A stretch of 64,000 nucleotides of DNA, taken from the IMG/VR virus record IMGVR_UViG_3300045988_138690, positions 4,322 to 68,321 of that record; one strand, written 5' to 3'. Below the pieces are notes generated by a model. The model was given only the letters and a program-made list of their open reading frames with translations. It made no database searches and was not told where the DNA came from. A program made the position numbers and the translations under genes. This DNA comes from a virus. Position 1 is the first letter of the stretch. Every line of letters begins with the position of its first letter. Shown piece after piece: positions 835-58,916 of the stretch.

Positions 835-1020
835 AACAAATGTGATACCATAATTATTTTATTAATCGCATCGTATTGAAAATCAAATCAATGCAATAAG
901 CGCATAGTCCCGTACGCACCGCTATAATAGGGACGAGAAAATCGCCCCTATTTTGTTGTATATCAGATTGTTGTACAATAGTGTATACCATAAATAATGC
1001 GCAATTCGCATAAAAAACAG

Positions 1021-1054
1021 TGCCCGATTGTGCCTTTTTATGCCCGATTGTGCC
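1021..1054 (+). repeat. 14-bp direct repeat TGCCCGATTGTGCC x2 (candidate integrase arm sites)
   Basis: Exact copies at 1021-1034 and 1041-1054, 20 bp centre to centre, about 70-100 bp upstream of the integrase start. Confidence 0.6.
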
Positions 1055-1122
1055 CAATAAAAAGAGATTATGTGTTACCTTGTGTGATACCGATTTTCGT
1101 TCGATGCCTAAAAACTTACAAA

Positions 1123-2732: not shown

Positions 2733-3188
2733 CTATATTATAGTTACAAATGATTCATCAATATATTCATATCCTATATACTTCATTTGTGCCTTATCAT
2801 TAGATCTGCACCACTTATGAAGCAAAACATTCATGTCATTGTTTATTTCTAATTCGAATTTATACTCCTTGCTTCGTTTAAATGGAAATTCCGTATATCC
2901 AGATAATAGCATGAAATCATTAATGGTTACCCCCGTGGAAAACCAGATAGTTTTACCGGACAATGAGGATGAACGAGACAAACGGAATTTCTTCCCAAAT
3001 ATTTCAACTTCCATGCCATCAGGGTTTTCTGCAATAACTTTTTCTGCAATTTCGGTTCGGAATTTAAGGTTTGTGCCTGCATATCCTATATGCGATGTTG
3101 CTTTAGGGCAATTAATATACTTCGGATTAGATAAGTCTCTACGAATGTCTTTTGCTCCGTTAATTAAGGATGTGATTTGAGTTTTCAT
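2733..3188 (-). CDS. Hypothetical protein (151 aa)
   Basis: Long ORF, first gene of a two-gene cassette. No motif recognised. Confidence 0.6.
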   Translation of the reverse strand: MKTQITSLINGAKDIRRDLSNPKYINCPKATSHIGYAGTNLKFRTEIAEKVIAENPDGMEVEIFGKKFRLSRSSSLSGKTIWFSTGVTINDFMLLSGYTEFPFKRSKEYKFELEINNDMNVLLHKWCRSNDKAQMKYIGYEYIDESFVTII

Positions 3189-3309
3189 AAAACAAACAGT
3201 TTTACGTGTGTCTCACGGCTGCACAACAGCTATTTTCTATATTGTAAATATACGTCTTATTTCTTTTTTAGCCAAATAAAGCTACAATTATTTTATGATC
3301 TTAAGGATA

Positions 3310-4242
3310 TTATTTAAAAAACTGTATGGCGTTTTTATCCAATTTGCCAATACCGCAACATATATACCCTTGGGTCATTTTTATATCTGAATGCCCCATT
3401 CTTTTGGAAATTTGAAGAATTGGCACGCCTAATTCCGCCAAGTTGGTAGCAAAACTTCTTCGGGCTGTATGGGACGCTATGAATTTCCATTTTTCGCCCG
3501 TTTCATTCTTCCCCCTTCGGAATAGTTTTACCCTTTCGTTTATCCCTGCTTTCCGGCATATATCCCGTATGGTATCGTTAAAGCTGCTATCGGAATACCT
3601 TTTCTTTCCGGCTATCGGGAGTAATTTGTGTAAAACTGGTTTTGCTTCGATAGTTGTTGCCGTTTTCGTTTTCTTGCTGACATAGTAAATATATCCGTTG
3701 CTTATGTTCTCATCCGTCATTTCCAATACATCCGAATGCCTTGCGCCCGTATAGCATCCGCACAGGAATTGCGCTAATATTATTTTCTCTTTCTCGTTTT
3801 CCGGGCGGTAACTTTCCAATATTGACAACTCGTTTAAGTTAAGATATACGCTTATGGAAGGCGTGTTTTTTACGCTTAATCTATCCTGATATCCAAGATA
3901 GGGTAAAGTAAATTCGTCCCGTGCATCGTTTAATACCGCCTTAATCATTGCAAAATAGGTTCTTCGTGAACTTTGCGCGCATCCTGAAAATACGGATGAT
4001 AAGTTATCTATATTTGATTTGGTAAAATCTTTCCAATCTGGTATAAAGCCAAGGTTGTTTTTAATTTTGGCAATTATCCCGTAATATTTAGGGTATTTGA
4101 GAATAAACCGCCCGCAAAAGGTGTTTTTCCAGTTCTTTACTTCTGGAAGTCCAGGTAATAAAAGTAGCCTATTCATCCTTTCCATTCCTTCCCGGCTCAT
4201 CTTGGAATTGAAAAGAAGCTTGTTTAATTCGTCCAGTTTCAT
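3310..4242 (-). CDS. Second tyrosine recombinase/integrase (310 aa)
   Basis: GARHSDV...HTARRSFATNLAELGVPILQISKRMGHSDIKMTQGYI gives the R..HxxR..Y catalytic signature. It lacks the arm-binding N-terminus of the first integrase. Confidence 0.85.
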   Translation of the reverse strand: MKLDELNKLLFNSKMSREGMERMNRLLLLPGLPEVKNWKNTFCGRFILKYPKYYGIIAKIKNNLGFIPDWKDFTKSNIDNLSSVFSGCAQSSRRTYFAMIKAVLNDARDEFTLPYLGYQDRLSVKNTPSISVYLNLNELSILESYRPENEKEKIILAQFLCGCYTGARHSDVLEMTDENISNGYIYYVSKKTKTATTIEAKPVLHKLLPIAGKKRYSDSSFNDTIRDICRKAGINERVKLFRRGKNETGEKWKFIASHTARRSFATNLAELGVPILQISKRMGHSDIKMTQGYICCGIGKLDKNAIQFFK

Positions 4243-20824: not shown

Positions 20825-23800
20825 ATGGCAGATTTAGGCTCATTGTTTTACTCGTTGTATCTGAAAGATCATACGGACGAAGACCTGGACAAAATAAAGA
20901 AGAAATTAGAAAATATTCGTATAGAACTTGGTTATGATTTTAACGAAAATACCGTTGATGCTTTTTTAAAGAAACTTAGGGACACAGGCAAGGCTATATC
21001 AGACAACAAGGCTGCGCAATTATCTTCTGATAACGTGGCGAAAGCCGCGCAGGACACCCGCCTTAAACAGATGGAACGCGAAGCTAGGATATTGGGAGAT
21101 ATTCAGGCTAAGAAGTCAAAAGCCATGCAGCCTATCGATAGCGCCCTAAACTATGCAAGGACACGGGAAGCCATATCATTACCATACGAAAGTATTTCCT
21201 ATAAGAATGCCCAGAACCGACTCGCGTCATATATAAAGTCTCTTTCGCGGGAAGCGGATGCCCAGGAACGCATGAGAAAAGCCGCAGAGAAAAGTATTGC
21301 CACCCGTGAACGGGAAGCAAAGGCTGCACAAAGACAAACCAATGCAAACAACCATCTTAACACATCCATCGGACAGCAAAGCAGGCTTTTGACAGGACTT
21401 AGAGACCAGTTACTCAATGTATACTCCATATATTCGCTGGAACGGTTTGCCACTTCCCTGGTTGAAATAGGCGGGGAATTCCAGAAGCAGCGTATAGCGT
21501 TGCAAGCCATGCTTGGTGACGCAGCAAAGGCAGATGCCATGTACTCGCAGATCAAGGGTCTTGCCATTGAGAGTCCTTTTAATTTTAAGGAATTAATGGG
21601 TTATACAAAGCAGCTTTCCGCATTTTCAATACCCTATAACGAATTGTACGACACAACCAAACGTCTTGCTGATATTTCAAGCGGGCTTGGCGTGGATATG
21701 GGACGCATCATACTTGCTTATGGACAGGTGCGTAGCGCGGCTTTCCTCCGTGGGCAGGAAGTGAGGCAGTTTACGGAAGCTGGCATTCCGTTGCTTGATG
21801 AGTTGGCAAAAAAATTCTCTCAACTTGAAAACCGTGTCGTAAGCGTTGGAGAGGTGTTTGATAAGATAAGCAGGCGGGAAGTCCCATTCCAGATGGTGAA
21901 GGATGTTCTTTGGGACTTAACCAACGAGGGCGGGAAATTCTATAACATGCAGGAGGTTCTTACCGAAAGTCTGTCGGGTAAGCTGGCTAAGTTGAAAGAC
22001 AGTTATGAGATTATGCTTTCGGAGATAGCACAAGCGAATAATGGTCTATTAGGAGGAACGCTTGACATGCTCTCTTCCGTTACGGATCATTGGAGAGAAT
22101 TACTTCCTGTATTGTCTGGAATTATAGCTTCTTATGGGGCTTACAAAGCTGTCCTTATATCAGTAAACGCTATTCAGAAGGCTAATTTGGCGATAAACAA
22201 GATATCAGCTATAGTTGAGGTTGCAAGGGCTATTCAAGGACTTACAAGAGTGACTAAAGCACAGGCTGTTGCACAATACGCCTTGAATGCAGCAATGGCA
22301 GCAAACCCTTACTATTTAGTTGCCGCTGCAATAGGGGTGTTGATAGGTAGTATGGTATATTTAGCAAACGCAGAGACATCTGCGGAAAAAGCTACAAAGC
22401 ATCATCGCGAAGAACAGGAAAAATTTCAGAGTACTCTTGATGAAAGGAAATCCGAAATAGATGAACTTGTACGCACTATTCAAGATGAGACAGAAACTGA
22501 ATACAGACAAATATCAGCTTATGAAAAATTGAAAACACTTTCTCCTGCTTTGACGGACGCTTATTCACGGGAACAGTTGGCTGTATTAGAATTGTCAAAA
22601 GCACAAAAAGTGCTTAATGAAGAACGGGATAAACTTAATTACGACAATATAATTAAGAATATAAATAAATACACATCCGCTATAAATGGACTCAAAAGAA
22701 AATTGGGAGATAAGTCTTACAATCAGACTATCATATCAGAGGATATTAGTAACGCTCAAGATAACCTAGATAAATGGAAACAGGATCTTAGCGATTACAA
22801 TCGTCTAAAAAAAGAAGCGGAAGATAGCGTGAAACCAGTAGAAGTTAGATTATTCGAAGCAAAAGCGAGCAAGGATAAGATACAACAAGAATTTCTTGCT
22901 GCAAAAATGGCTTTTGAATTAGAACAGGAAAAATTTAAAAAAGGAGAAATTCTTCAAATACCTATTGATGTAGAACTTAGGTTTATAAATGCGCAAAATG
23001 CATTGAAAGATATAATAAATAAAATTTCCAGTTTGCCATCTGATGTAAACGAAGTTATTAGAAATAAGTCATATTGGGAAAGCATAAAAAAAGATGCCGA
23101 AGAAGCAAGAGACGATCTCGACGTATCCTTAGTGGGAGGTGAAAGGTGGAACAAACTTACAGAAACTATTAAAAATGCACAAAAAGAACTAGATAAATTT
23201 TCTGATAAAGAAAAAGCCAAAGACCATATAGCTGAATTTTGGAAAAAACGTATTGACTTAATAGACAAGGCTCTTTCCTCTTATAAGGAATGGAGTGCAT
23301 TAGAAGGAAAAGATGCTGCTTCAAACAGGGTAAAGGAAAATGTTGGGTTTAAAGAACTTTTCAATAAAAACAATGGGTTTTCACTTGACTTGGATAATCC
23401 GGAAGAAGCATGGAAGTTCGTACTTGGGAAACTAGGTAAGATAGAAAAACAGAAAGAATTGAGCCTATCCATAGAGATGAAACTTGACAAGAGCGCACAA
23501 GGTAAGATAAAGGAGGAACTTGATAAGTCTCTTAAAGAAATTCAATTATATGTTGATGATACCACAAAGAAGTGGGACTTGTTCAAATCCATACGAGAGA
23601 AAACGGGCAACAAAAAGTTTGCAATGCAGCTTGCTTTCGGTGAACTGAATGTTGGTGAAACGGATATGCTGAAAGGTTTCCGTGAGGAAATAGAAAAAGG
23701 CATAGAAGGGAAAGGAATATCCTTTGAGGATGTGTTGAAAATGGATGAAGCATCAATGAAGGATGCAGGCATTTCGTCCATAGAGCCATACGTGAAAGCC

Positions 23801-25837
23801 TACAATGACGGTATGATGCAGCTAAGAAAAGATACAGCCGATAACTTGGCTGAACTTGTAAGCAAATACCGTGACTATGCTACACAGGTGACGGAGATTG
23901 AGAACAAGCTGAATGATGATTTGGCTGACATAGAGAGCAACCGCCATAAACTTGAATCTGGTGGTGTGGATGTTGACAAAATGATTGCCGAACGCAGGAA
24001 GCAGGCTAATGAAGAGAAAGGAAGCGTAGCTTTTGAACAGTTTAAAGAATCTTCCGACTGGGTACGAATATTCGATGATTTGGATAGGGTTTCAAATGCC
24101 ACACTGGATTCAATGATTGATAAGGTGAAAGAGTTTGCTTCCTCCCAGAAACTTTCCGTGGAAGAGACGAAGGAACTTGTAGAAGCCTTACGTAAACTAA
24201 GAGGAGAGCAAACGGAACGTAACCCTTTCAAGGTTGTGGCAGGCGCTTTGAAAAATATCAAAGATGCAAAAAATGCAGTTAAGAATGCAACTACCAAAAG
24301 CGAAAAAGATAAAGCAGATAATGACTTATCGGGTGCTTATGGAGACTTAAACAATGGGATTACTGCCGTTATCGGTAAGTTTGACGCCCTATCTTCTGCC
24401 GCTGATATGCTTGGTGGCATGTTTGAAGCACTTGGCGCAGGTGATGGCCTTTCTTCTGCCGCAGGATTGATTGGTGGAGGTCTGCAAGGTGCATCGCAAG
24501 GAATGGGCATAGCTACATCTCTGTTTGGTGCAGCGGCTGGTCCATGGGGAGCTGCGGCCGGAGCAGCGGTAAGCCTCATTACAGGAATTGCGCAGATGCA
24601 CGACAAGAGGCTTGAAAAGAGTATCAATGAAAGCAAAAATCGTGTTGAGGAATTAAAGGCTGCATACGATAATCTGAATGCTTCTGTGGAAAGATTTGGA
24701 GATACGGGAACAAGAGCAGTAGAACAGCAACTTGCCCTGTATGGACAGTTGAATGAACAGGTACAGAGGAGTGGAAGTTCTCTAAGCACAAGTTATTCTA
24801 TCGTATATGAAGTTCTGAAAAATAGCGATAAATATGCAGAGCATTTGAAGGAACAGATAAAAGCCGGAGAACTTGCAGCTAGAGGATTATCCAAGTTTTT
24901 TGGAACAAATATTAAGATTTTCTCTGTAGAAGCTGATAAAGAAGCCTTGAAAGCACTTGAAGATGTAGGTGTAGGTGGAACAGAAGCATTGAAAACCTAT
25001 CAAGCTCAATACGTTTCACTCGTGGCTCAACGAAGGGAACTTGAGGGACAGCTTCGTGACGAAGAAGGTAAAAAGGATTCGGATAGTGGAAAAATTTCTG
25101 ATTATCAACAGCAGATAAATGAATTGAATGAGCAGATACGTTACTTTATTGAGGATTTAGCCAAGGAATTGTATGCAATAGATTTTGACGGTTGGGCAGG
25201 TCAGATAAGCGATGCGCTCATAAATGCGTTTGCAAACGGGGAAGATGCTGCATTGGCTTTCGATGATGTAGTGAACAACATAATGAAGGATGTAGCTAAT
25301 TCTATTCTGAAAAATTTGGTTATTTCGCCAATGATGGAGAAATTACAGCGGAAGTTATTCGGTGACGAAAACGGGAATGGTGGAGTTTTCAAATCTTTTG
25401 AAGATTTGAATAACAATACAAATATTGCTGCTTCCGCTATCAAAGATTTCTTTGATACGGAGGGTAATGCCATGCTGGATGCTTCACAAAAATTCCTTGA
25501 AGCTTTTGATAAGGCTACTGGAGGCGCATTGGCGGCTACCGGAGAAAGCGACACTTCCGGTCTGTCAAAAGGAATACAGGGTGTTACGGAAGATACGGCA
25601 AATTTACTCGCTTCTTATCTGAATGCCACGAGACAAGACGTAAGCGTGAAGAGGATTTTGCAGGAAAAATTTTTTAATGAAGAGTTCCCAAAAATGAGTC
25701 TTATAGCACAGGCGCAGTTACAACAGCTGAATGCGATAGCAAGAAATACGGAAAGAAATGCACAGTTTACAGAAGAAATACTGGATTTATTTAATATGGT
25801 TGTAGATAAAGGTGGAAGAAATGTGAGGATGCACTAA
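20825..25837 (+). CDS. Tail tape measure protein
   Basis: 1670 aa. Conserved TMP core ESPFNFKELMGYTKQLSAF...RGQEVRQFTEAGIPLL, long coiled coils, hydrophobic and Gly-rich segments. Confidence 0.9.
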   Translation: MADLGSLFYSLYLKDHTDEDLDKIKKKLENIRIELGYDFNENTVDAFLKKLRDTGKAISDNKAAQLSSDNVAKAAQDTRLKQMEREARILGDIQAKKSKAMQPIDSALNYARTREAISLPYESISYKNAQNRLASYIKSLSREADAQERMRKAAEKSIATREREAKAAQRQTNANNHLNTSIGQQSRLLTGLRDQLLNVYSIYSLERFATSLVEIGGEFQKQRIALQAMLGDAAKADAMYSQIKGLAIESPFNFKELMGYTKQLSAFSIPYNELYDTTKRLADISSGLGVDMGRIILAYGQVRSAAFLRGQEVRQFTEAGIPLLDELAKKFSQLENRVVSVGEVFDKISRREVPFQMVKDVLWDLTNEGGKFYNMQEVLTESLSGKLAKLKDSYEIMLSEIAQANNGLLGGTLDMLSSVTDHWRELLPVLSGIIASYGAYKAVLISVNAIQKANLAINKISAIVEVARAIQGLTRVTKAQAVAQYALNAAMAANPYYLVAAAIGVLIGSMVYLANAETSAEKATKHHREEQEKFQSTLDERKSEIDELVRTIQDETETEYRQISAYEKLKTLSPALTDAYSREQLAVLELSKAQKVLNEERDKLNYDNIIKNINKYTSAINGLKRKLGDKSYNQTIISEDISNAQDNLDKWKQDLSDYNRLKKEAEDSVKPVEVRLFEAKASKDKIQQEFLAAKMAFELEQEKFKKGEILQIPIDVELRFINAQNALKDIINKISSLPSDVNEVIRNKSYWESIKKDAEEARDDLDVSLVGGERWNKLTETIKNAQKELDKFSDKEKAKDHIAEFWKKRIDLIDKALSSYKEWSALEGKDAASNRVKENVGFKELFNKNNGFSLDLDNPEEAWKFVLGKLGKIEKQKELSLSIEMKLDKSAQGKIKEELDKSLKEIQLYVDDTTKKWDLFKSIREKTGNKKFAMQLAFGELNVGETDMLKGFREEIEKGIEGKGISFEDVLKMDEASMKDAGISSIEPYVKAYNDGMMQLRKDTADNLAELVSKYRDYATQVTEIENKLNDDLADIESNRHKLESGGVDVDKMIAERRKQANEEKGSVAFEQFKESSDWVRIFDDLDRVSNATLDSMIDKVKEFASSQKLSVEETKELVEALRKLRGEQTERNPFKVVAGALKNIKDAKNAVKNATTKSEKDKADNDLSGAYGDLNNGITAVIGKFDALSSAADMLGGMFEALGAGDGLSSAAGLIGGGLQGASQGMGIATSLFGAAAGPWGAAAGAAVSLITGIAQMHDKRLEKSINESKNRVEELKAAYDNLNASVERFGDTGTRAVEQQLALYGQLNEQVQRSGSSLSTSYSIVYEVLKNSDKYAEHLKEQIKAGELAARGLSKFFGTNIKIFSVEADKEALKALEDVGVGGTEALKTYQAQYVSLVAQRRELEGQLRDEEGKKDSDSGKISDYQQQINELNEQIRYFIEDLAKELYAIDFDGWAGQISDALINAFANGEDAALAFDDVVNNIMKDVANSILKNLVISPMMEKLQRKLFGDENGNGGVFKSFEDLNNNTNIAASAIKDFFDTEGNAMLDASQKFLEAFDKATGGALAATGESDTSGLSKGIQGVTEDTANLLASYLNATRQDVSVKRILQEKFFNEEFPKMSLIAQAQLQQLNAIARNTERNAQFTEEILDLFNMVVDKGGRNVRMH

Positions 25838-25869
25838 AAAAGGGATGGCTATTCCCATCCCTTCATTGA

Positions 25870-26115
25870 TTATTTTATCATTTGCATTTTGATAAGTAAA
25901 GACATCTTATTCGGGAAACTTTCCCCACTGTCCTCATTCCATTTTTTGGCAGCTTCAAGTTGTTCTTCTATACCTATTGTAGTATATTCTACAGCTTTGT
26001 AAAGATGACCTTTAAACTCAAATTTTTGATTAGGGAATGAATAGAGGGGATAATCTGATAAAAGAGCATCATGTTCTACTTTTTCTCCTTAAAAGTCTAA
26101 AATAATTTTTTCCAT
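25870..26115 (-). pseudogene. Small ORF interrupted by an in-frame TAA at codon 9
   Basis: MEKIILDF*GEKVEHDALLSDYPLYSFPNQKFEFKGHLYKAVEYTTIGIEEQLEAAKKWNEDSGESFPNKMSLLIKMQMIK is one frame of 82 codons with a single internal stop. Confidence 0.4.
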
Positions 26116-26164
26116 ATTATTAAAATTAAATGTTTATGCAAAGTTATAATTTAAAAACGATATT

Positions 26165-26674
26165 ATGAACGAACTTAACAAGAAACTTAGAGACCGGGCT
26201 ATAGAGCTTGGTCTATGCAAACAATGGAAGGGTGAATGGGACAAAGATCGTACCCAGGACGAACTAATTAAGATGTGGAAGAAAGGCAGTGACTTTTGCT
26301 TTGAGAAGCACGATTTCCCCAATAAGGAGTTTATAAAGGCTTACTTTGATAGGAAAGTATTGAACGACAATCTTGTTTTCGTGGATGAAATAGTCAATAT
26401 CACCAATGGAGAAAGCGGTACATGGGTGATAAACGGTAACTGTACTGGTAATATCTCTTTTGGAGGATTTGCGGCTGCAAGATTGTATGTAAGGCATGAT
26501 TGCGATGTCTCTATTGATGTATCGGGAATGTCTAAGGTGTTTGTATCGGTATATAACAATGCCAAAGTAAACGTAAAGCAAAGTGGTAGCTCAAAGGTAT
26601 ATGTGTACAAGAAAAGCCCCTCCTGCGAGGTGGATTTGGACGGAGATGTAATGGCGAGAGAGGGAAGTATTTAA
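26165..26674 (+). CDS. Hypothetical protein with beta-helix-like C-terminal repeats (169 aa)
   Basis: N-terminal LGLCKQWKGEW domain followed by V-x-V-x repeats. Confidence 0.6.
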   Translation: MNELNKKLRDRAIELGLCKQWKGEWDKDRTQDELIKMWKKGSDFCFEKHDFPNKEFIKAYFDRKVLNDNLVFVDEIVNITNGESGTWVINGNCTGNISFGGFAAARLYVRHDCDVSIDVSGMSKVFVSVYNNAKVNVKQSGSSKVYVYKKSPSCEVDLDGDVMAREGSI

Positions 26675-26680
26675 TTGTAA

Positions 26681-26748
26681 TAGTCAAGACTTGTTCTGAC
26701 AGTTTTTTTGTCCGATAGTAAAACAAATGTCAGAACAAGTCTTGACTA
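26681..26748. terminator. 68-bp palindrome (perfect 21-bp arms), bidirectional terminator
   Basis: TAGTCAAGACTTGTTCTGACA (26681-26701) and its exact reverse complement (26728-26748), between convergent genes. Confidence 0.75.
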
Positions 26749-26773
26749 ATTCACATTAACTATCAATATCAAA

Positions 26774-27697
26774 CTATCTATTCAATCGTTTTATAAATGA
26801 TATATCAGACAGCAGCGTTTTCTTTTCGTTGTCTGATAATATTTCATTATCTGATACAATTAATTCTTCCAGGTATTCAGTAAATCCAGTAACATCCTTA
26901 TTTATTTTCTCTTTGTACAATTCAATTGTTTTTGGAAGCCCCATTCTGCCTTCACCGTAGGTATCAGATAGAAGTTTTAATATATCACTATTTACTTCTG
27001 AATAGTCATTACCCTCATGTAATATTTGTATTTTAGAAGTGTTATCAACTTCTTTAGCTTGTCTTTCTATTATGATAGACAATACAGAACTTACTTTCTT
27101 TATAAATTCTTTAGATTCTGCATATCTTGCTTTTATTTGAATAGAGGGCATTGATAAATTGTTTATTGTTATAACCATTGAATAAACAACTACTTCTTGT
27201 ATTTTTGTATTAGAAGTTGTGCCTATTTCTCTTTTGCCTGTAGTTCCTCCGATAACAGCACCTGTACCTCCTAAAAGCACTCCTCCTACGGTCGCTCTAC
27301 CTATCATACTTGAAGTTTTAGCTTTTGATGTTCCACTTGTGGAAGTGATGGATGAACTAATTCTCCCATCTTCGTATATATCTACTTTTATGATGTCAGA
27401 AAAATTAAACATCCATGTTTCTTCCCCATATTTAAGATATACTACCTTAGACGATTCGTAAACTTCTATATTTGAATACGGACATTTGGATTGGTATCCA
27501 AAAGATATTTCGCCATACTTTCTTATCCTTTCTTCTTTTTCTAATTCTTCTTTTTCTTTTCTATTTTTATTTTCAATTTCTCTTTTTTTCTGTAGTTCTT
27601 GTATCTTTCTTATTTCATTGGCTTCTTTATTGTCCCCTATTGTTTTCAATACTCCAAATACTATACCAATTATTATACCTAAAATAATATAAGTCAT
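26774..27697 (-). CDS. Single-pass membrane protein with K/E coiled coil and a glycine zipper (307 aa)
   Basis: N-terminal TM MTYIILGIIIGIVFGVL, a K/E-rich segment, an S/T-rich linker, and GRATVGGVLLGGTGAVIGGTTG. Confidence 0.65.
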   Translation of the reverse strand: MTYIILGIIIGIVFGVLKTIGDNKEANEIRKIQELQKKREIENKNRKEKEELEKEERIRKYGEISFGYQSKCPYSNIEVYESSKVVYLKYGEETWMFNFSDIIKVDIYEDGRISSSITSTSGTSKAKTSSMIGRATVGGVLLGGTGAVIGGTTGKREIGTTSNTKIQEVVVYSMVITINNLSMPSIQIKARYAESKEFIKKVSSVLSIIIERQAKEVDNTSKIQILHEGNDYSEVNSDILKLLSDTYGEGRMGLPKTIELYKEKINKDVTGFTEYLEELIVSDNEILSDNEKKTLLSDISFIKRLNR

Positions 27698-27801
27698 TTT
27701 ATTGTTTTTTAATTTATATGCAAATATAGGCCATAATCAGCATTTGTTGTTATAATATACATCATGTTATTAAACATGTTTGCTTTTTCAAAGAGAATGC
27801 A

Positions 27802-27809
27802 TATCTTTG
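27802..27809 (+). promoter_or_regulatory. -7 box TATCTTTG
   Basis: Matches TAnnTTTG at the head of a non-coding leader. Confidence 0.5.
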
Positions 27810-27812
27810 CAA

Positions 27813-27967
27813 TGACTGATACAACATAATAATTCTTGGGCAAAATAAAGCGAATACATTTTGTACAAGATATTGGGAAACCCTCTAAGGTGGCAGAAAG
27901 GAAACAATCTGCGACATCTATGCCCTGTGTATGTTGTGTCAGTCACACCTACGGAGGGTTTCTTTTT
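27813..27967 (+). ncRNA. Structured leader/sRNA with alternative pairings
   Basis: Segment A (27813-27827) pairs with B (27931-45) over 15 bp. The stem GAAACCCTC/GAGGGTTTC (27877-85/27954-62) is followed by T5. B can alternatively pair with C (27986-99). Confidence 0.45.
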
Positions 27968-27984
27968 ATCATAATTCGTTTAAT

Positions 27985-28176
27985 ATGACTGACACAACGA
28001 ATTTAACTTTACCTACCTCCTACCAAAAGGCGGTAATCGGCATCCTTCTGAAAGAGAAGAAGATGCTCCGACGTATCAAACGCAGAAAAGGGCTTGTACC
28101 TTTCTGTGCAGTGCTAACCCTCTACCTTTTCCATTTGTTCCTATATCCGTTTGTCAAACTTGCAAGGTGGATTTGA
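27985..28176 (+). CDS. Small tail-anchored membrane peptide (63 aa)
   Basis: MTDTTNL...KEKKMLRRIKRRKG followed by the hydrophobic LVPFCAVLTLYLFHLFLYPFV. The start codon lies inside complementary segment C. Confidence 0.35.
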   Translation: MTDTTNLTLPTSYQKAVIGILLKEKKMLRRIKRRKGLVPFCAVLTLYLFHLFLYPFVKLARWI

Positions 28177-28522
28177 TAATTGTTGATTTACTTGCTTAGT
28201 TAGTATATAAAATTCTGTGATAATGCGGTATATATTTTGTATATCGTATGAGTAATTGTATGTAAATTTACTTATTTGATTGCTTGATTAATTGATTTAT
28301 TTATCAGATAATCAATAAGTTAAATATAAAATATCCTATTGCGTAATTGATTTTTGTTACTAACTTAGCAGGCAGAAACAACGTTGTTAGTCGTTCTTCG
28401 TGGTTGTCGAACGACTGGAATAAAGATATTATTGGGCATTTCCCTTTGGAGCAGACAACCACATTAGGCTTCATCGGGATTTGCCCTTTACTTTTTAATA
28501 TAGGAATAAAACGAATCAAGAT

Positions 28523-29272
28523 ATGAACGAATTAGTTTTCAAAGGTCAGAACGAACAAGTTTTGACTAACAGCCTATTGGTTGCTGAAAAGTTCTGCAAA
28601 GAACATGGTGATGTATTAAAAGCCATTGATGCTTTAGTTGATAAATTGTCTGAAAATCAATGTGAAGGATATTTTGCGGAAACATCAATTGATGTTCCTC
28701 AACCTAATGGTGGAGTAAGAAATTCACGTGTTGTAGTCATGAATCGTGATGGGTTTACTTTACTTGTTATGGGGTTCACTGGTAAGAAAGCCCTAAAATT
28801 CAAATTGGAATATATCGCAGCCTTCAACGCCATGGAGAAAGCATTGAAAGAACAACAAAACAAAAAACTTTCTGGCGCAGAATTTCTTCTTGAGCAAGCA
28901 AAGTTAATGGTTGAGCAAGAACGCAGACTTTCAAATGTAGAGAATGAGATTGAGGCAATAAAGAAAGAACGAGAAGAAAACGGGAAATTCCTATTGTCAG
29001 TGTCTATGTCTTCGGAAGAATTACCGCAGCTGTCTATGCGCGACAACATCCGTCAACTAGTAAACAAATACGCATCCGCCATGAATATAAGGCAGCAAGA
29101 CGTATGGCACAAGATTTATGACCAGCTGTATTACCTATATCATATCTCCATACGGAACTACAAGAAAGCAAGACGAGACGAATCCAAACTTGAAATAGCG
29201 GAGAGAAATCATTTCCTTGATAAGATATACAATATCATATCGAATTTGGTTCGTGAGATGAATATCTCCTAA
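28523..29272 (+). CDS. Rha-family phage regulatory protein
   Basis: N-terminal VLTNSLLVAEKFCKEHGDVLKAIDAL matches the Rha-domain signature (ttS..iAe.fgK.H.nVLr.I). Confidence 0.75.
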   Translation: MNELVFKGQNEQVLTNSLLVAEKFCKEHGDVLKAIDALVDKLSENQCEGYFAETSIDVPQPNGGVRNSRVVVMNRDGFTLLVMGFTGKKALKFKLEYIAAFNAMEKALKEQQNKKLSGAEFLLEQAKLMVEQERRLSNVENEIEAIKKEREENGKFLLSVSMSSEELPQLSMRDNIRQLVNKYASAMNIRQQDVWHKIYDQLYYLYHISIRNYKKARRDESKLEIAERNHFLDKIYNIISNLVREMNIS

Positions 29273-29369
29273 TAGTTATCATAAATATAATCACTTTTTT
29301 AAGGTTGCACACGCCATGCAGCCTTGAAAATCTATGTACCACTTTACTTATATTAAAAAAATTAACATT

Positions 29370-29546
29370 ATGGAAAACAAAATAGAAATACTTATAAAAC
29401 AGAACAGGATGCTTATGCAGCAATTGCTACGCATATCAGAAGACTTGGAACTTGCGCAAGAAAAGATAGCCAAGCTGGAAAAATCCGAATGTACAGGAAG
29501 CCTTAAAACGAAAAACCCCCACATGAAGATATTGAACCGTATATGA
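29370..29546 (+). CDS. Small coiled-coil protein, paralog of 174-368
   Basis: MENKIEILIKQNRMLMQQLLRISEDLELAQEKIAKLEKS, followed by a terminator. Confidence 0.5.
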   Translation: MENKIEILIKQNRMLMQQLLRISEDLELAQEKIAKLEKSECTGSLKTKNPHMKILNRI

Positions 29547-29559
29547 TAAAAAAACAAAG

Positions 29560-29594
29560 GGTGCAGTAGTTTTTATACTCACTGCGCCTTTTTT
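29560..29594 (+). terminator. Intrinsic terminator
   Basis: 8-bp stem (29560-67/29581-88) plus T6. Confidence 0.7.
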
Positions 29595-29634
29595 GTAGTA
29601 CAATAAAACATTTGATTGTATCACGTTATAGCCC

Positions 29635-30057
29635 TTATTCCAGTTCTTTCCCGGTCAAATCAAAATATATGTTTTGAAGCTGATGCAGATATTCAATGGG
29701 GATATTGGATAAAGGATATTCGGCACTGTTTATAGACACGAATAGTTTAGCGTCATTCACTCCATCATTATATAGGTATCGTCCGTATGACAATTCGATA
29801 TCGTTGCAGAACCCGTTATATTCCTTTGTAAATCCGCTTTTCAGGAGTAATTCCTCTGTCAATGGGATGGGTTCTACCATGGAAACCGGAACTTCACTAT
29901 AGCAAACCCCGTCGCCTACCTTACATTCCAGATACAAGTAATTGCGTTTTATGGCTTCCACTTTGCATACAGTGCCAGCAGGAACTTGGGTTATTACAAA
30001 AGTGTAATCATCTGATAATCTCACATAGTTCCCTAATTTTAAATTTTCTGTTTTCAT
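29635..30057 (-). CDS. Hypothetical protein (140 aa from MKTENLKL)
   Basis: ORF. The internal ATG is preferred over the Tyr-rich extension. Confidence 0.5.
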   Translation of the reverse strand: MKTENLKLGNYVRLSDDYTFVITQVPAGTVCKVEAIKRNYLYLECKVGDGVCYSEVPVSMVEPIPLTEELLLKSGFTKEYNGFCNDIELSYGRYLYNDGVNDAKLFVSINSAEYPLSNIPIEYLHQLQNIYFDLTGKELE

Positions 30058-30171
30058 GACAAGTTGATAATAATTTGTGTAAATATAATAATAAATGGGA
30101 TGTGTCAATGCATATAAAGATGTTTTTGTGTATATTTTCTATGTTTTTGTAGATTATATAATAAATATTTG

Positions 30172-30179
30172 TATATTTG
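30172..30179 (+). promoter_or_regulatory. -7 box TATATTTG restarting tail-gene transcription
   Basis: TAnnTTTG about 100 nt upstream of the Dit-like gene. Confidence 0.5.
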
Positions 30180-30281
30180 CAATGAGTAATCCATAATATA
30201 AGCTACATAAAGCCGTAAGAGCTTGGAATGGTACAATATATATTATTGTTCCCGTTTCAGGCTCTTTTTTTATCAAAGGAA

Positions 30282-30794
30282 ATGAACGAACCGTATTCCA
30301 TATTATTCCAGAAGATGAAGTCGGGTGCACCCGTTAAAGACCTTTTCGATAATTTCGGGATGGTGTGTACAGATTTCCCGTTGCCTTCTCCGGGTGATGT
30401 AAAAGACTTGCCAAAGCGTGACTGGGCAGAAGAAGACGGTGAAGATACCTTTATTCCGGATACTTTACCTCTAAAAGCGTATGACATTAAAATAAGTGTA
30501 TGCTACGAGGGAACAAAAGGCACGGCTATGGATAAGTTGGAGATGTTGCTTGACTATCTTACTGGAGAGGATAATTATGGTTCACGGTTGAAGATATACA
30601 ATGCCAAGACCCATACGGGAAGGCAGGACGTATATCTGACGAAAATAAGCGATACGGAATTGTGGCAAGGATACGATAGTGAAATTCTTGAGTTTAATAT
30701 GGAGCTGCATATGTGTGATCCGAAAACAAGGATTATCCCAAGTTATAAGACAGGTAGCAGTACAGTTGTTGAAAATTTGGTTGTAAGGAGTTGA
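30282..30794 (+). CDS. Distal tail protein (Dit-like)
   Basis: Position before the Tal-like gene. The N-terminus resembles siphovirus tail-family proteins. ATG at 30282. Confidence 0.55.
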   Translation: MNEPYSILFQKMKSGAPVKDLFDNFGMVCTDFPLPSPGDVKDLPKRDWAEEDGEDTFIPDTLPLKAYDIKISVCYEGTKGTAMDKLEMLLDYLTGEDNYGSRLKIYNAKTHTGRQDVYLTKISDTELWQGYDSEILEFNMELHMCDPKTRIIPSYKTGSSTVVENLVVRS

Positions 30795-56926: not shown

Positions 56927-57115
56927 TTACTTTTTTCTTATCTGTAAAAATCCGCGTTTCTCACATTCACGCAGCAACTCCATATCTTCGTCCTTTATAT
57001 CACATGGTGTTTCATGGTTGACGCTCATATAGTCTGATATCCCGAATTTTCGGCATATATCGTGATAGAAACGTTTGTTTCGGCCTCTTGCAGTCCAACA
57101 TACTGTTAGCTTCAT
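56927..57115 (-). CDS. Hypothetical protein (62 aa)
   Basis: ORF in the early string. Confidence 0.45.
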   Translation of the reverse strand: MKLTVCWTARGRNKRFYHDICRKFGISDYMSVNHETPCDIKDEDMELLRECEKRGFLQIRKK

Positions 57116-58043: not shown

Positions 58044-58676
58044 TTATTTCTTGACTATTCCCGTTCTTCTGTATTCATCCCACTTGTCATACTGCTTCGT
58101 TTCGACAAGATAGTGGAAGCATGAGCACTTGAGTTCTATTTCCCTGCGTTCGCTCCACCTTGTCCATTTGAGCATTTCTTTCGTGAACTGCAGTTCTTTT
58201 TCAAGCATTGCGATTTTCCGTTTGTCGGCTGCGCTTGACTTGGCAACCTTTGGTACAATCTCATTCACCTTGTGAAATACTTCACGATATACATCAAATA
58301 CGGGGCGAACCTTGCGGGCAATGAAGAACTCCATGCAGGGTAAGGAGAGGTAGCAATCGTATTTTACTCCGTTTACTAAGTTTTTGACTGTTACCACCTT
58401 CGCATTTTGGCAAAGGTAAAAATCAACACCTTCAATAAAACTATTTTTCAATTCTCGGAAAGCATCTCCTTTTCTTGTGTACACAAGCGGATAAACCGAA
58501 TCAAGATTTACCGGAAATTCTTCTTTTGATTTTGATAATTCAAGCACCGCCATGAAGTAGCGTTTGATTTCGCTTGTGGTACTTAGTAGAGATAACGATA
58601 CAGTTGTCGCACTGTTAGGCGCAAAGAGGGGCATACTATTGTTCTGCTCAACTCTGATTTCATTGTACTTTGGCAT
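58044..58676 (-). CDS. Hypothetical protein (210 aa)
   Basis: ORF in the early string. Confidence 0.55.
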   Translation of the reverse strand: MPKYNEIRVEQNNSMPLFAPNSATTVSLSLLSTTSEIKRYFMAVLELSKSKEEFPVNLDSVYPLVYTRKGDAFRELKNSFIEGVDFYLCQNAKVVTVKNLVNGVKYDCYLSLPCMEFFIARKVRPVFDVYREVFHKVNEIVPKVAKSSAADKRKIAMLEKELQFTKEMLKWTRWSERREIELKCSCFHYLVETKQYDKWDEYRRTGIVKK

Positions 58677-58916
58677 TTGATAAATGAAATTTGAGTTATA
58701 GATATAAAGAAAGCCGTTAGCTTCCCTTTACTCGCCAAAGTACGACTATAATAGTTTCCAATTACAGCCTATCAAGGAAGTCTAACGGCTTATATCTTTG
58801 CGATATAGCAGTCAAAACGACATAAAATATGCCGTAATCAGAATACTATACATATCATACTTTGGCGAAGTATGCCGCAAAGATACTAACTCAAATCAAA
58901 ATGCCAAAGGAAAAGC

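What the first reader, a model, noticed from the sequence alone, without database searches (positions are those of the whole stretch)
25838..30227. 4.4-kb accessory island splitting the tape-measure and distal-tail genes
In siphovirus tail modules the tape measure gene is normally followed directly by the Dit gene. Here the tape measure ends at 25837 and the Dit-like gene starts at 30282.

In between are at least seven small genes on both strands:
- an interrupted ORF;
- a 169-aa repeat protein;
- a 307-aa membrane protein;
- a structured leader plus a 63-aa peptide;
- a Rha-family regulator;
- a 58-aa coiled-coil protein;
- a 140-aa protein.

The island has its own -7 box (27802) and its own terminators (26681-26748 and 29560-29594). 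A further -7 box at 30172 at its right edge restarts tail-gene transcription. By eye it is more AT-rich than the flanking structural genes.

This is the architecture of lysogen-expressed cargo, such as superinfection exclusion, defence or regulation. Apart from Rha, none of the products matches a family I can name.
Basis: partly seen in the sequence, partly recalled or inferred. Interest (0 to 1): 0.7.

Follow-up and report, generated by a model that had tools for sequence, protein, structure and literature searches.

The report
RNA-controlled antirepressor cassette inside tail genes
A gut Bacteroidales prophage carries, wedged between its tail genes, a swappable block whose core looks like a phage-P1-style immunity switch (a small antisense RNA predicted to block an antirepressor operon), flanked by unrelated cargo genes.

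Summary
Every listed feature is in the sequence, but the island is smaller and more mosaic than described. The 169-aa gene follows the tape measure in every relative that has it, so it belongs to the tail module. The variable part is 26675-30281 plus a 0.35-kb insert at 25814-26161. It has the lowest G+C of the window. It is absent from environmental relatives and differs in content among gut relatives.

The "structured leader" is a c4-2 RNA (Rfam RF02944, 27876-27965). Thirteen of its bases are exactly complementary to the start codon region of the 63-aa ORF. A second copy of that target sits 3 nt after the -7 box. Across relatives the antisense segment and both targets change together, giving at least 10 specificities. 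The genes downstream are always antirepressor families (Rha, KilA-N/ANT, Bro-N/ANT, AntA). This matches the c4-icd-ant (immI) layout of phage P1.

A conserved structured RNA with no Rfam match lies just upstream of rha. The 307-aa protein belongs to Pfam PH_gly_zipper. It and the 140-aa gene are window-specific cargo of untested function. A second c4-like module lies at 58.7 kb.

Verdict: a new variant of a known kind, with moderate to good interest. No step has been tested by experiment.

The parts
20825..25837 (+). Tape measure gene (left flank, context)
   Evidence: PF20155 TMP_3 at 1.1e-16 and phrog_9959 at 5.5e-100.
25814..26161 (-). Window-specific 0.35-kb insert between the TMP gene and p169. 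It holds a small minus-strand ORF (25870-26115) interrupted by an in-frame TAA at codon 9, with a TAACTTTG box at 26139-26146 (-) upstream and a hairpin at 25840-25863 downstream.
   Evidence: In the other close relatives p169 starts 27-59 nt after the TMP gene. Relative L033 has an intact 80-aa ORF here with the same first 8 residues. The blastn breakpoints are, the hairpin and the box.
26165..26674 (+). p169: a conserved tail-module gene, not cargo. The C-terminal half is a beta-solenoid.
   Evidence: It lies directly after the TMP gene in L001-L008, L030, L032, L039, L040, L045 and L051, at 35-95% identity. It hits phrog_10156 at 2.4e-29. In the AlphaFold2 model, residues 70-166 are confident 10-residue beta repeats. 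There is no significant fold or PDB match.
26682..26747 (.). Perfect 20-bp inverted repeat between the convergent p169 and p307 genes (candidate two-way terminator).
   Evidence: Read. It was picked up as spurious microRNA-like hairpins on both strands.
26774..27697 (-). p307: a membrane-anchored PH_gly_zipper protein. It is window-specific cargo, transcribed divergently from the c4-2 promoter, with a TATATTTG box at 27721-27728 (-).
   Evidence: PF27000 is precomputed for the 100%-identical P0001. There is a hydrophobic segment at residues 1-23. The gene is absent from L001-L007 and L033. A 74%-identical copy sits at the same site in lineage L051, whose p169 and Dit are only 43-45% identical.
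27802..27809 (+). -7 box TATCTTTG: candidate promoter of the c4-2 operon.
   Evidence: Match. The box is kept, with the same spacing to the upstream target copy, in most modules, although some boxes deviate from TAnnTTTG. The consensus is from PMC7366714.
27813..27828 (+). a1: upstream copy of the antisense target, 3 nt after the -7 box.
   Evidence: 16 bp of complementarity to 27930-27945, with one G-U pair. It covaries with the antisense segment: 100% of cells paired and 4 pairs changed on both sides. It is predicted to bind more strongly than a2 in all 11 modules tested.
27876..27965 (+). c4-2 antisense RNA. The antisense segment is 27933-27945. The outer stem plus U-run is terminator-like.
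   Evidence: RF02944 at 41.3 bits (gathering score 41), E = 2.8e-7. Relative L002 scores 43.7 bits. Two outer-stem pairs are compensated.
27985..28176 (+). 63-aa ORF in the icd position. The a2 target (27986-27998) covers its start codon.
   Evidence: Exact 13-nt complement of the antisense segment. The protein is conserved at 67-90% across modules of different specificity. The frame breaks upstream of this ATG in relatives, which fixes the start. There is one hydrophobic segment at residues 35-60.
28374..28501 (+). Conserved structured RNA just upstream of rha. P2 hairpin is 28390-28415 with loop GUGGUUGUC at 28400-28408. The long hairpin is 28434-28486 with loop GACAACCAC at 28454-28462. A U-rich tail follows.
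   Evidence: 84% identical to LoVEphage DNA. A strict pattern gave 26 IMG/VR hits. Every variant folds the same way although the stems differ in sequence. All 7 P2 pairs are compensated. With the loop-loop helix included, 99.3% of cells pair and 0 of 500 shuffles reach the covariation score or the percentage paired. No Rfam match at E <= 10.
28523..29272 (+). Rha-family regulator / antirepressor.
   Evidence: PF09669 at 1.2e-25, phrog_373 'anti-repressor' at 5.7e-38 and TIGR02681. Only the N-terminal ~150 residues are shared with L001 and L002.
29370..29546 (+). 58-aa protein, the last gene of the cassette.
   Evidence: Present in all close relatives about 170 nt upstream of Dit. It is 88-91% identical in protein (about 95% in DNA) in other backbones, where it also follows an Ant gene. 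No family match.
29560..29594 (.). 8-bp GC-rich hairpin flanked by an A-run and a U-run, between the convergent 58-aa and 140-aa genes.
   Evidence: Read. It lies in the window-specific segment 29550-30130.
29635..30057 (-). p140: window-specific cargo gene, with an SH3-like N-terminal domain.
   Evidence: Absent at this site in all relatives. It has 83 homologues in Bacteroidales and phage sequence, none with a Pfam domain. They sit in varied phage positions. The AlphaFold2 model has pLDDT 91.9, but Foldseek gave only weak SH3 hits.
30172..30273 (+). Conserved -7 box TATATTTG (30172-30179), then a hairpin of about 21 bp plus U7 (30217-30273), ending 9 nt before the Dit-like start codon.
   Evidence: The box and hairpin are conserved in L001, L003, L005, L007 and L033. 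Folding energy is -28 kcal/mol, z = -5.1.
30282..30794 (+). Dit-position gene (right flank, context).
   Evidence: Gene order is conserved, at 39-95% identity in relatives. No family or PDB match.
58665..58885 (-). Second c4-like module of the same design and a different specificity. It has a box TATCTTTG (58885-58878), a1 CGCCAAAGTAT (58867-58857), an RNA at about 58790-58705 with antisense GTACTTTGGCG (58743-58733), and a2 TGCCAAAGTAC (58675-58665) over the ATG of a 210-aa ORF. A KilA-N/ANT gene (57112-57930) follows.
   Evidence: Rfam does not detect it. Homologous modules in IMG/VR carry at least 8 further specificities. Relative contig UViG_3300045988_138617 holds both the island and a homologue of the 210-aa ORF with its own complementary triple, so both kinds of module occur in one phage genome.

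Best explanation
The stretch is a recombination hot spot in the tail module of a temperate Bacteroidales siphophage. Its conserved core (27802-29546) is a secondary-immunity cassette built like immI of phage P1.

Proposed mechanism:
1. A -7 promoter starts a transcript whose first bases are a copy of the target (a1).
2. Next comes the c4-2 RNA, whose outer stem and U-run probably end most transcripts.
3. Read-through RNA carries the second target copy (a2) over the start codon of a 63-aa membrane-peptide ORF. It then carries a structured leader, the Rha-type antirepressor and a 58-aa gene.
4. In a lysogen, free c4-2 RNA pairs with a2 through 13 bases. Bacteroidota mRNAs lack Shine-Dalgarno sites, so covering the start region should block translation of the small ORF. 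As in P1, this would keep the antirepressor off and the prophage silent.
5. The five variable bases inside the duplex set the specificity. A resident c4-2 would therefore silence the cassette of an incoming phage only if that phage has the same type.
6. a1 is predicted to bind the antisense segment more strongly than a2 does. It may mask the segment within the unprocessed transcript, giving a newly arrived genome a short window of expression.

Around this core, unrelated genes have been inserted with their own signals: the PH_gly_zipper membrane protein p307, p140, and a decayed small ORF. These are most likely lysogen-expressed cargo.

Shown here: RNA family membership, the complementarities and their covariation, the gene families, and the mosaic structure.
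Inferred: transcript ends, action in trans, the polar effect on rha, the target of Rha, and every cargo function.
For: RNA and targets:
- The Rfam c4-2 match reaches the gathering score.
- The antisense segment is an exact 13-nt complement of the start region of the 63-aa ORF. A 16-bp complement lies 3 nt after the -7 box.
- In the 95%-identical alignment of window, L001, L002 and L004, variable columns cluster in the three elements: 12 of 39 columns against 23 of 198, Fisher p = 0.005.
- All 128 cells pair. Four of the 13 antisense:a2 pairs and four of the 13 a1:antisense pairs changed on both sides. None of 500 shuffles reaches the covariation score, the percentage paired or the count of doubly changed cells.
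- A triple scan found 61 hits in 1.87 Mb, against 5 in shuffled sequence. The hits sitting next to a -7-type box give at least 10 specificities.
- Mean duplex energy is -20.0 kcal/mol for cognate pairs and -8.1 for non-cognate pairs.

Link to antirepressors:
- In lineage L051 the target lies directly on the Rha/ANT start codon, with no small ORF in between.
- The downstream genes in relatives are KilA-N/ANT, Bro-N/ANT, AntA and Ant.
- The window's second module shows the same design upstream of a KilA-N/ANT gene.

Lifestyle and mosaic structure:
- Two integrase genes point to a temperate lifestyle.
- Island presence and absence are.

Background: P1 immI is summarised in PMC8198154. The lack of Shine-Dalgarno sites in Bacteroidota is from PMC7366714.
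Against: - There are no transcript data, so the promoter, the RNA ends and any processing are unverified.
- The Rfam score passes the cut-off by only 0.3 bit, and the default whole-window scan missed the match.
- The antisense segment lies partly inside the second hairpin of c4-2, not in a free loop.
- Antisense and target are 40 nt apart on one strand, so the covariation is equally compatible with pairing only in cis.
- A 346-nt spacer with its own structured RNA separates the small ORF from rha. That RNA has a consensus -7 box in several relatives and a near-consensus box (TAACTTAG) here, so control of rha by c4-2 may be weak or absent in this phage.
- No primary repressor was found in the window.
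- Rha proteins are not proven antirepressors.
- Only one recognition segment was found, where P1 has two.
Confidence: 0.68

Rival explanations
1. The antisense/target pairing works only within one molecule. The region would be a cis-acting leader that hides the small ORF's start codon, with a1 as the competing strand, and no trans-acting immunity RNA would exist.
For: All three elements lie on one strand within 190 nt, and covariation cannot tell cis from trans. a1 is predicted to bind better than a2 in all 11 modules, which fits a switch between two intramolecular helices.
Against: The RNA matches the c4-2 family and folds as a closed unit with a terminator-like stem and U-run. The five-base code differs while the remaining ~220 columns stay nearly identical. 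That is the pattern expected if selection favours new immunity types, and a purely cis hairpin has no obvious need for it.
Confidence: 0.15
2. c4-2 and the 63-aa hydrophobic peptide form a type I toxin-antitoxin (addiction or abortive-infection) pair, and control of the antirepressor is incidental.
For: The small ORF has one hydrophobic segment after a basic stretch. Its translation start is covered by an antisense RNA. The peptide is conserved across modules of different specificity. A 346-nt spacer separates it from rha.
Against: In L051 and in the second module the same kind of RNA targets the start of Rha/ANT or of a 210-aa ORF, not a small peptide. An antirepressor gene always follows. 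P1 Icd is itself a growth inhibitor within immI (PMC11897509, abstract seen), so the two readings can both hold.
Confidence: 0.2
3. One reading: the whole stretch is a loose collection of lysogen-expressed cargo for superinfection exclusion or defence, with Rha as just one more passenger.
For: p307, p140 and the interrupted ORF are window-specific and lie on the opposite strand. p307 and the interrupted ORF have an exact -7-type box upstream, whereas none was found for p140. p307 and p140 end at hairpins shared with the converging genes. Relatives carry other cargo at the same place: a UvrD helicase and a NYN nuclease. PH_gly_zipper genes elsewhere lie beside integrases or beside putAbiC and PIN genes.
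Against: The central 1.7 kb is an ordered, conserved cassette that also occurs outside tail genes. p169 is a core tail-module gene. PADLOC returned nothing for any product.
Confidence: 0.15
4. All the genes are virion or tail-assembly components specific to this phage group.
For: They sit inside the tail module, and p169 is conserved with the tail genes.
Against: Relatives with the same TMP, Dit and Tal genes lack everything between p169 and Dit. The content differs among close relatives. The genes lie on both strands, and several belong to regulator families.
Confidence: 0.03

Closest known systems
immI region of coliphages P1 and P7 (c4 antisense RNA - icd - ant1/2)
   Same: - An antisense RNA is encoded upstream of its own target, on the same strand and in the same operon.
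- One target copy lies upstream of the RNA and one lies over the translation start of the first small ORF.
- An antirepressor gene follows.
- Related phages differ by matched changes in the RNA and its targets, as in P1/P7 heteroimmunity.
(P1 facts are from PMC8198154, and from my memory of Citron & Schuster 1990. The features here are.)
   Different: - There is one contiguous 11-16-nt recognition segment, not two (a', b').
- The promoter is of the Bacteroidota -7 type, and there is no Shine-Dalgarno site to cover.
- The small ORF encodes a hydrophobic peptide with no shown relation to Icd.
- 346 nt and a further structured RNA separate the small ORF from the antirepressor, where P1 has coupled or overlapping genes.
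- The antirepressor is of Rha, KilA-N, Bro-N or AntA type.
- The cassette sits inside the tail module.
- RNase P processing is unknown here.
c4-2 RNA motif (Rfam RF02944; Weinberg et al. 2017, PMC5737381)
   Same: The window RNA and that of relative L002 reach the family's gathering score and fit its consensus structure.
   Different: In its main text, the paper only calls the motif a likely distant homologue of a previously described RNA. Its supplement is not held in the library. I found no paper in the library that describes targets, a duplicated target, specificity types or gene context for c4-2 in Bacteroides phages.
immI region of Salmonella phage P22 (sieA, mnt, arc, ant, sar RNA), recalled from memory
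   Same: An antirepressor under antisense-RNA control is embedded among late structural genes just upstream of a tail gene, next to a membrane protein for superinfection exclusion. This parallels p307 plus the c4-2/Rha cassette lying upstream of Dit.
   Different: The P22 sar RNA is transcribed from the opposite strand across the ant start, and protein repressors (Mnt, Arc) dominate control. No homology to P22 was tested here.
Type I toxin-antitoxin systems
   Same: A small hydrophobic peptide has its translation start covered by a small RNA.
   Different: The RNA is encoded on the same strand, upstream and in the same transcript. The pair is always followed by an antirepressor gene, and sister modules lack the peptide.
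Morons (independently transcribed accessory genes inserted between structural genes of temperate phages)
   Same: p307, p140 and the interrupted ORF show presence/absence among relatives, lie on the opposite strand and have lower G+C. p307 and the interrupted ORF have an exact -7-type box, and p307 and p140 end at hairpins.
   Different: Their functions are unknown, and no expression data exist.

Membership tests
Rfam RF02944 c4-2 RNA | Covariance-model score at or above the curated gathering score (41 bits) | tested here: met
   41.3 bits, E = 2.8e-7, full-length match to model positions 1-79. Relative L002 scores 43.7 bits. The default filters missed the match on the whole window.
Rfam RF02944 c4-2 RNA | Consensus fold: a long outer stem, an inner stem and two hairpins | tested here: met
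   All 19 tested pairs (outer stem, inner stem and first hairpin) form in all four sequences, and two outer-stem pairs are compensated. The second hairpin was not counted. Its 3' arm overlaps the antisense segment, and it is present in the Rfam alignment. The minimum-energy fold agrees overall.
P1-type immI system | Antisense RNA complementary to the translation-initiation region of the first ORF downstream in the same operon | tested here: met
   A 13-nt exact complement covers the ATG of the 63-aa ORF. It is kept through matched changes in at least 10 specificity types.
P1-type immI system | A second copy of the target upstream of the RNA (a1b1 in P1) | tested here: met
   A 16-bp complement lies 3 nt after the -7 box, and it covaries with the antisense segment.
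P1-type immI system | Two separate recognition segments (a' and b') | tested here: not met
   Only one contiguous segment was found. No other complement of 7 nt or more stands out from the chance level.
P1-type immI system | The downstream gene is an antirepressor that inactivates the primary repressor | tested here: inconclusive
   At family level the answer is yes: Rha/phrog_373 'anti-repressor' here, and KilA-N/ANT, Bro-N/ANT, AntA and Ant in relatives. Binding to a repressor cannot be tested with these tools, and no repressor was identified.
P1-type immI system | Expression of the small ORF is tightly coupled to expression of ant | tested here: not met
   A 346-nt non-coding spacer with a terminator-like structured RNA lies between the two genes.
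P1-type immI system | The RNA is released from the operon transcript by RNase P and acts in trans | not testable with these tools
   This needs transcript mapping and genetics.
P1-type immI system | The small ORF is homologous to Icd | not tested
Pfam, PHROGs, NCBIfam and PADLOC gave no hit for the 63-aa product or for the 81-aa ORF that contains it.
Pfam PF09669 Phage_pRha | HMM score above the gathering score (29.9 bits) | tested here: met
   90.4 bits, covering profile positions 1-91 of 91. TIGR02681 scores 69 bits against a cut-off of 45.95.
Pfam PF27000 PH_gly_zipper | HMM match to the family | tested here: met
   The hit is precomputed for the 100%-identical protein P0001 and for all 20 other homologues. 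The local Pfam-A scan returned no family for this protein, so no score was obtained here.
Distal tail protein (Dit) | Sequence or fold similarity to known Dit proteins | tested here: inconclusive
   No Pfam, PHROG, NCBIfam or PDB sequence hit, and no structure was predicted. Only the conserved TMP-(p169)-X-Tal order supports the label.
Known anti-phage defence systems (PADLOC-DB) | HMM match of any island product | tested here: not met
   0 families for all six products.
Type I toxin-antitoxin | A small hydrophobic toxin whose translation is blocked by an RNA antitoxin | tested here: inconclusive
   The hydrophobic segment at residues 35-60 and the covered start codon are present. Toxicity cannot be tested, and sister modules lack the peptide.

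The most novel reading that the evidence does not exclude
The island is the secondary-immunity centre of a large group of gut Bacteroidales phages, and it stacks two RNA devices.
1. A c4-2 switch with a duplicated target. A five-base code makes dozens of mutually blind immunity types, and at least two independent copies occur per genome.
2. A so-far undescribed leader RNA with two complementary hairpin loops and a terminator-like stem. It gates Rha/Ant genes in many phages, including LoVEphage, and would be a new class of phage riboregulator.
Probability: 0.35. Interest if true: 0.75.

Novelty: new variant of a known kind. Interest (0 to 1): 0.6.

Why it matters
How Bacteroides prophages are kept silent, and what makes one immune to another, is poorly understood. 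The c4-2 motif has had no assigned target in the literature searched here.

This locus gives a concrete model that a mutant can test: an RNA, two target copies, a five-base specificity code and an antirepressor operon. The model recurs in many gut phage genomes with many specificities.

If it holds:
- Immunity groups of gut Bacteroidales phages could be predicted from sequence.
- A set of short, mutually non-interfering RNA repressor/target pairs would be available for Bacteroides genetics.
- A second, unnamed structured RNA could be studied as a regulator of antirepressor genes.

The work also shows that the TMP-Dit junction of this phage group is a hot spot where accessory genes are exchanged.

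Tried and rejected
- Rfam at gathering thresholds on the whole window found nothing. The c4-2 hit appeared only with the more permissive E-value search on 4.5 kb.
- No tRNA or tmRNA gene in the window.
- PADLOC gave no hit for any island product. NCBIfam hit only Rha.
- PDB sequence searches for p169 and the Dit-like protein found nothing below E = 0.2.
- Foldseek against the PDB gave only weak SH3-domain hits for p140 (best E = 0.02) and generic beta-solenoids for p169 (best E = 0.15). Neither is used for function.
- The sigma-70 promoter scan was at chance level and does not apply to Bacteroidota. The terminator scan found only the hairpin at 25840.
- TAnnTTTG is not enriched in the window, so boxes are cited only where position and conservation support them.
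- The genome-contig scan returned one distant Paludibacter MAG, so the host could not be named.
- Megablast against GenBank phages found no close relative.
- A Pfam search of ten ORFs beside and downstream of the integrase genes found no repressor.
- A second (b'-like) recognition segment was looked for and not found.
- The tRNA-like stretch after the LoVEphage copy of the leader RNA is not called by ARAGORN.
- The supplement of Weinberg 2017 is not held, and one literature search was swamped by the C4-2 cell line.
- I considered that the 81-aa ORF (27931-28176) was the real gene and rejected it, because the frame breaks upstream of the ATG at 27985 in relatives.
- I considered that the conserved block upstream of rha was coding and rejected it. 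Its variants differ by indels that are not multiples of three, and by compensating stem changes.

Full report
**What is in the sequence**

The window is a temperate, Bacteroidales-type siphophage.
- It has two tyrosine integrase genes at 1-4.2 kb, plus terminase, portal and capsid genes.
- The tape measure gene (TMP) lies at 20825-25837 (PF20155, phrog_9959).
- A 170-aa ORF starts at 30282, followed by a 1698-aa tail-fibre-like ORF.
- A 100%-identical copy lies on a human-gut metagenome contig (L047).
- The stretch 26675-30281 has 33.4% G+C, against about 41% for the flanking tail genes. It is essentially the lowest-G+C stretch of that size in the window.

**Where the island really begins and ends**

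I collected relatives through the Dit-like protein and mapped the window's proteins onto them.
- The 169-aa gene follows the TMP gene directly in every close relative and in Bacteroides phage LoVEphage (50% identity).
- In five distant, mostly environmental relatives (L008, L032, L039, L040, L045), TMP-p169-Dit-Tal are contiguous.
- Three further relatives (L042-L044) have the TMP gene directly followed by Dit.
- p169 is therefore part of the tail module. Its C-terminal half is predicted as a regular beta-solenoid. No fold or family match says what it does.

The accessory region proper runs from the end of p169 to Dit. It is 3.6 kb here, 4.5-7 kb in L001-L007 and L033, about 3.3 kb in LoVEphage, and 0.06-0.13 kb in most of the distant relatives.

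blastn breakpoints show a mosaic.
- Window-specific segments:
  - 25814-26161;
  - 26675-27750 (p307);
  - 28840-29285 (the C-terminal half of Rha);
  - 29550-30130 (a hairpin plus p140).
- Conserved segments:
  - 27751-28840;
  - 29286-29549;
  - 30131 onwards.

**The 'structured leader' is a c4-2 RNA with a duplicated target**

An E-value search of Rfam placed RF02944 (c4-2) at 27876-27965, with 41.3 bits against a gathering score of 41. The RNA of relative L002 scores 43.7 bits.

Three elements are complementary:
- The antisense segment GTTGTGTCAGTCA (27933-27945) is the exact reverse complement of TGACTGACACAAC (27986-27998). That target covers the ATG at 27985 of the 63-aa ORF.
- A near-copy, TGACTGATACAACATA (27813-27828), lies 3 nt after the -7 box TATCTTTG. 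It pairs over 16 bp with one G-U pair.

In relatives all three elements change together:
- L001 has GTTGTGACGTTCA / TGAACGTCACAAC / TGAACGTTACAAC.
- L002 has GTTGTGTCAAGCA / TGCTTGACACAAC / TGCTTGATACAAC.
- L017 and L021 differ by TAGCA/TGCTA against TGACA/TGTCA.

The statistics agree:
- Window, L001, L002 and L004 are 95% identical over 237 columns. The variable columns concentrate in the three elements (Fisher p = 0.005).
- All cells pair, and four pairs in each helix changed on both sides. None of 500 shuffles reaches the observed covariation score.
- A blind scan for such triples found 61 in 1.87 Mb of collected loci, against 5 in shuffled sequence. The hits that sit next to a -7-type box define at least 10 specificities.
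- Predicted duplex energies average -20 kcal/mol for cognate pairs and -8 for non-cognate pairs. One nearly cross-reactive pair exists, L005/L033.

**What the RNA controls**

Downstream of the small ORF, the window has a Rha-family protein (PF09669; phrog_373 'anti-repressor'). Relatives have Rha plus KilA-N/ANT, Bro-N/ANT or AntA proteins.

In a different phage backbone (L017), the same cassette carries a phrog_130 Ant gene among non-tail genes.

In lineage L051 there is no small ORF. The target TGCTAACAGAT abuts the ATG of a Rha/ANT fusion, and the upstream copy again lies 3 nt after TATCTTTG.

The window holds a second module of the same design on the minus strand at 58665-58885.
- It has another specificity (GTACTTTGGCG / TGCCAAAGTAC).
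- Its target covers the ATG of a 210-aa ORF, which is followed by a KilA-N/ANT gene. Rfam misses this module.
- Homologues of it in IMG/VR add at least 8 more specificities.
- One relative contig carries both the island and a homologue of the 210-aa ORF with its own complementary triple, so both kinds of module occur in one phage genome.

This architecture is that of immI of phage P1: a promoter, an upstream target copy, the c4 RNA, a target over the start of icd, then ant. In P1, c4 is needed for full repression of the antirepressor (PMC8198154). That P1 and P7 are heteroimmune through matched changes in the RNA and its targets is recalled from memory (Citron & Schuster 1990).

**A second structured RNA upstream of rha**

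Between the small ORF and rha lie 346 nt.
- The last 128 nt (28374-28501) are 84% identical to LoVEphage DNA.
- A strict pattern for this block occurs in 26 IMG/VR stretches.
- Every variant folds into the same layout:
  - a hairpin presenting CGUGGYUGUC in its loop;
  - a long composite hairpin presenting GRCARCCACAUUA in its loop;
  - a U-rich tail.
- The stems differ in sequence between variants. There are five versions of the first stem and three or four versions of the second.
- In a nine-sequence alignment, all seven pairs of the first stem are compensated.
- The two loops are complementary over 9 bp, with one compensated position.
- Several copies have a consensus -7 box about 8 nt upstream. 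The window has TAACTTAG, one mismatch from the consensus.
- In the window and in the L001- and L011-type variants, the tail ends about 22 nt before the antirepressor start codon. L014 and L021 each carry two copies.
- No Rfam family matches.

I read this block as a leader or attenuator of antirepressor genes. In LoVEphage it may be a free-standing small RNA. Its ligand or partner is unknown.

**Cargo genes**

p307:
- It carries Pfam PF27000 (PH_gly_zipper). It has an N-terminal membrane anchor and, by eye, a glycine-rich GGVLLGGTGAVIGG stretch.
- It is absent from the closest relatives.
- A 74%-identical copy sits at the same place and in the same divergent orientation in lineage L051. The tail proteins of that lineage are only 43-45% identical, so the gene has moved between backbones.
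- More distant family members lie next to integrases and an ORF6N gene, or next to putAbiC, PIN and DUF4160/DUF2442 genes.
- This fits an exclusion or defence role but does not show one.

p140:
- It is inserted between the 58-aa gene and Dit only in this phage.
- Its model is confident (pLDDT 91.9), but only an SH3-like N-terminal domain is recognisable.
- Homologues occupy varied positions in other phages.

Other genes:
- The interrupted minus-strand ORF has an intact 80-aa counterpart in L033.
- The 58-aa gene always closes the cassette, also in other backbones where it is 88-91% identical in protein and about 95% in DNA. No family is known for it.

**Transcription signals**

TAnnTTTG matches are not enriched in the window. 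The matches at 27802, 27721 (-), 26139 (-) and 30172 are intergenic and correctly oriented. Those at 27802 and 30172 are conserved in relatives.

The conserved box at 30172 is followed by a strong hairpin with U7 at 30217-30273 (-28 kcal/mol, z = -5.1), ending 9 nt before the Dit-like start codon. 'Restart of tail transcription' is therefore not straightforward. Either this hairpin ends the cassette's transcripts, or tail-gene expression needs antitermination.

**Mechanism, with shown and inferred steps separated**

Shown:
- the RNA family;
- the three complementary elements and their covariation;
- the position of the target on start codons;
- the antirepressor families downstream;
- the mosaic and presence/absence pattern.

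Inferred:
- Transcription starts at about 27813.
- Most transcripts end after the c4-2 outer stem.
- Free c4-2 pairs in trans with a2 and blocks translation. Bacteroidota lack Shine-Dalgarno sites and rely on the sequence around the start codon (PMC7366714).
- This lowers Rha synthesis by polarity.
- Rha counteracts the prophage repressor.
- a1 is predicted to bind the antisense segment more strongly than a2 in all 11 modules tested. I suggest it masks the antisense segment in the unprocessed transcript.

Weak points:
- There are no expression data.
- The Rfam score is at the threshold.
- The antisense segment lies partly within a hairpin.
- No repressor was identified.
- The spacer and leader RNA could uncouple rha from c4-2 in this particular phage.

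**Rival readings**

Three rivals remain open:
- pairing only in cis;
- a type I toxin-antitoxin pair formed by c4-2 and the hydrophobic peptide;

The second can hold together with the main model. The third is right for p307, p140 and the decayed ORF, but not for the core. A structural role for all the genes is excluded by the relatives that lack them.

**Novelty**

The RNA family and the P1 paradigm are known, so this is not a new kind of system. As far as the searched library shows, the following are new:
- the assignment of targets to c4-2;
- the duplicated target next to a Bacteroidota promoter;
- the single-segment five-base code with many types;
- two modules per genome;
- the position inside a tail module;
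- the additional leader RNA with no Rfam family.

I rate it a new variant of a known kind, with interest 0.6.

Noticed in passing
window 58665-58885 (-), with ORFs 58044-58676 (-) and 57112-57930 (-): A second c4-like antisense module lies here. It has a -7 box, an upstream target copy, an RNA containing a GGAAAC stretch as in the consensus first-hairpin loop of c4-2, and a target over the ATG of a 210-aa ORF, followed by a KilA-N/ANT gene. Its specificity differs from the island's module, and Rfam does not detect it.
   Followed up: partly
window 30172-30273: A conserved -7 box is followed within about 40 nt by a hairpin of about 21 bp plus U7 (z = -5.1), ending 9 nt before the Dit-like start codon. 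This promoter-then-terminator layout suggests that tail-tip genes need antitermination, or that the hairpin is the terminator of the antirepressor cassette.
   Followed up: partly
L030 (LoVEphage MW660583) 3001-3123; L014 3363-3516 and 4211-4362; L021 3719-3872 and 4554-4708: The structured RNA found upstream of rha also occurs in LoVEphage, directly after a consensus -7 box and before a Rha-KilA gene pair. It occurs twice per locus in L014 and L021. LoVEphage has the same TMP-p169-[island]-Dit layout.
   Followed up: partly
immediately 5' of the outer stem of the c4-like RNAs (window 27866-27872; 58797-58792 on the minus strand; L003, L011, L014, L017, L022, L051): A short motif, (A)GATAT(T/A), precedes the RNA in 8 of 9 sequence-divergent variants. 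It may be a processing or recognition signal.
   Followed up: no
L025 7040-7228 and 8258-8470: Two c4-like modules with different specificities lie in tandem, about 1.2 kb apart, in one IMG/VR locus.
   Followed up: no
L001 4627-6756 (-); L051 7330-8022: Relatives carry other cargo at the same hot spot: a 709-aa UvrD-type helicase in L001 and L002, and a NYN-domain nuclease in L051, L053 and L055.
   Followed up: no
window 25870-26115 (-) versus L033 4004-4246 (-): The interrupted small ORF has an extra in-frame TAA after codon 8 relative to an intact 80-aa ORF in L033. The two share the promoter region and the first 8 residues, then diverge completely.
   Followed up: partly
window 997-2265 (+) and 3310-4242 (-): Two tyrosine recombinase genes lie about 1 kb apart at the left end of the window. 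No repressor gene was recognisable in the ten ORFs tested between 2.3 and 16 kb.
   Followed up: no
window 22500-23500: The middle of the tape measure gene drops to 32-35% G+C, nearly as low as the island. Low G+C alone therefore does not mark foreign DNA in this phage.
   Followed up: no
L030 about 3160-3250: Downstream of the LoVEphage copy of the leader RNA is a stretch with a T-arm-like GGTTCGATTCC motif. ARAGORN does not call a tRNA there.
   Followed up: partly
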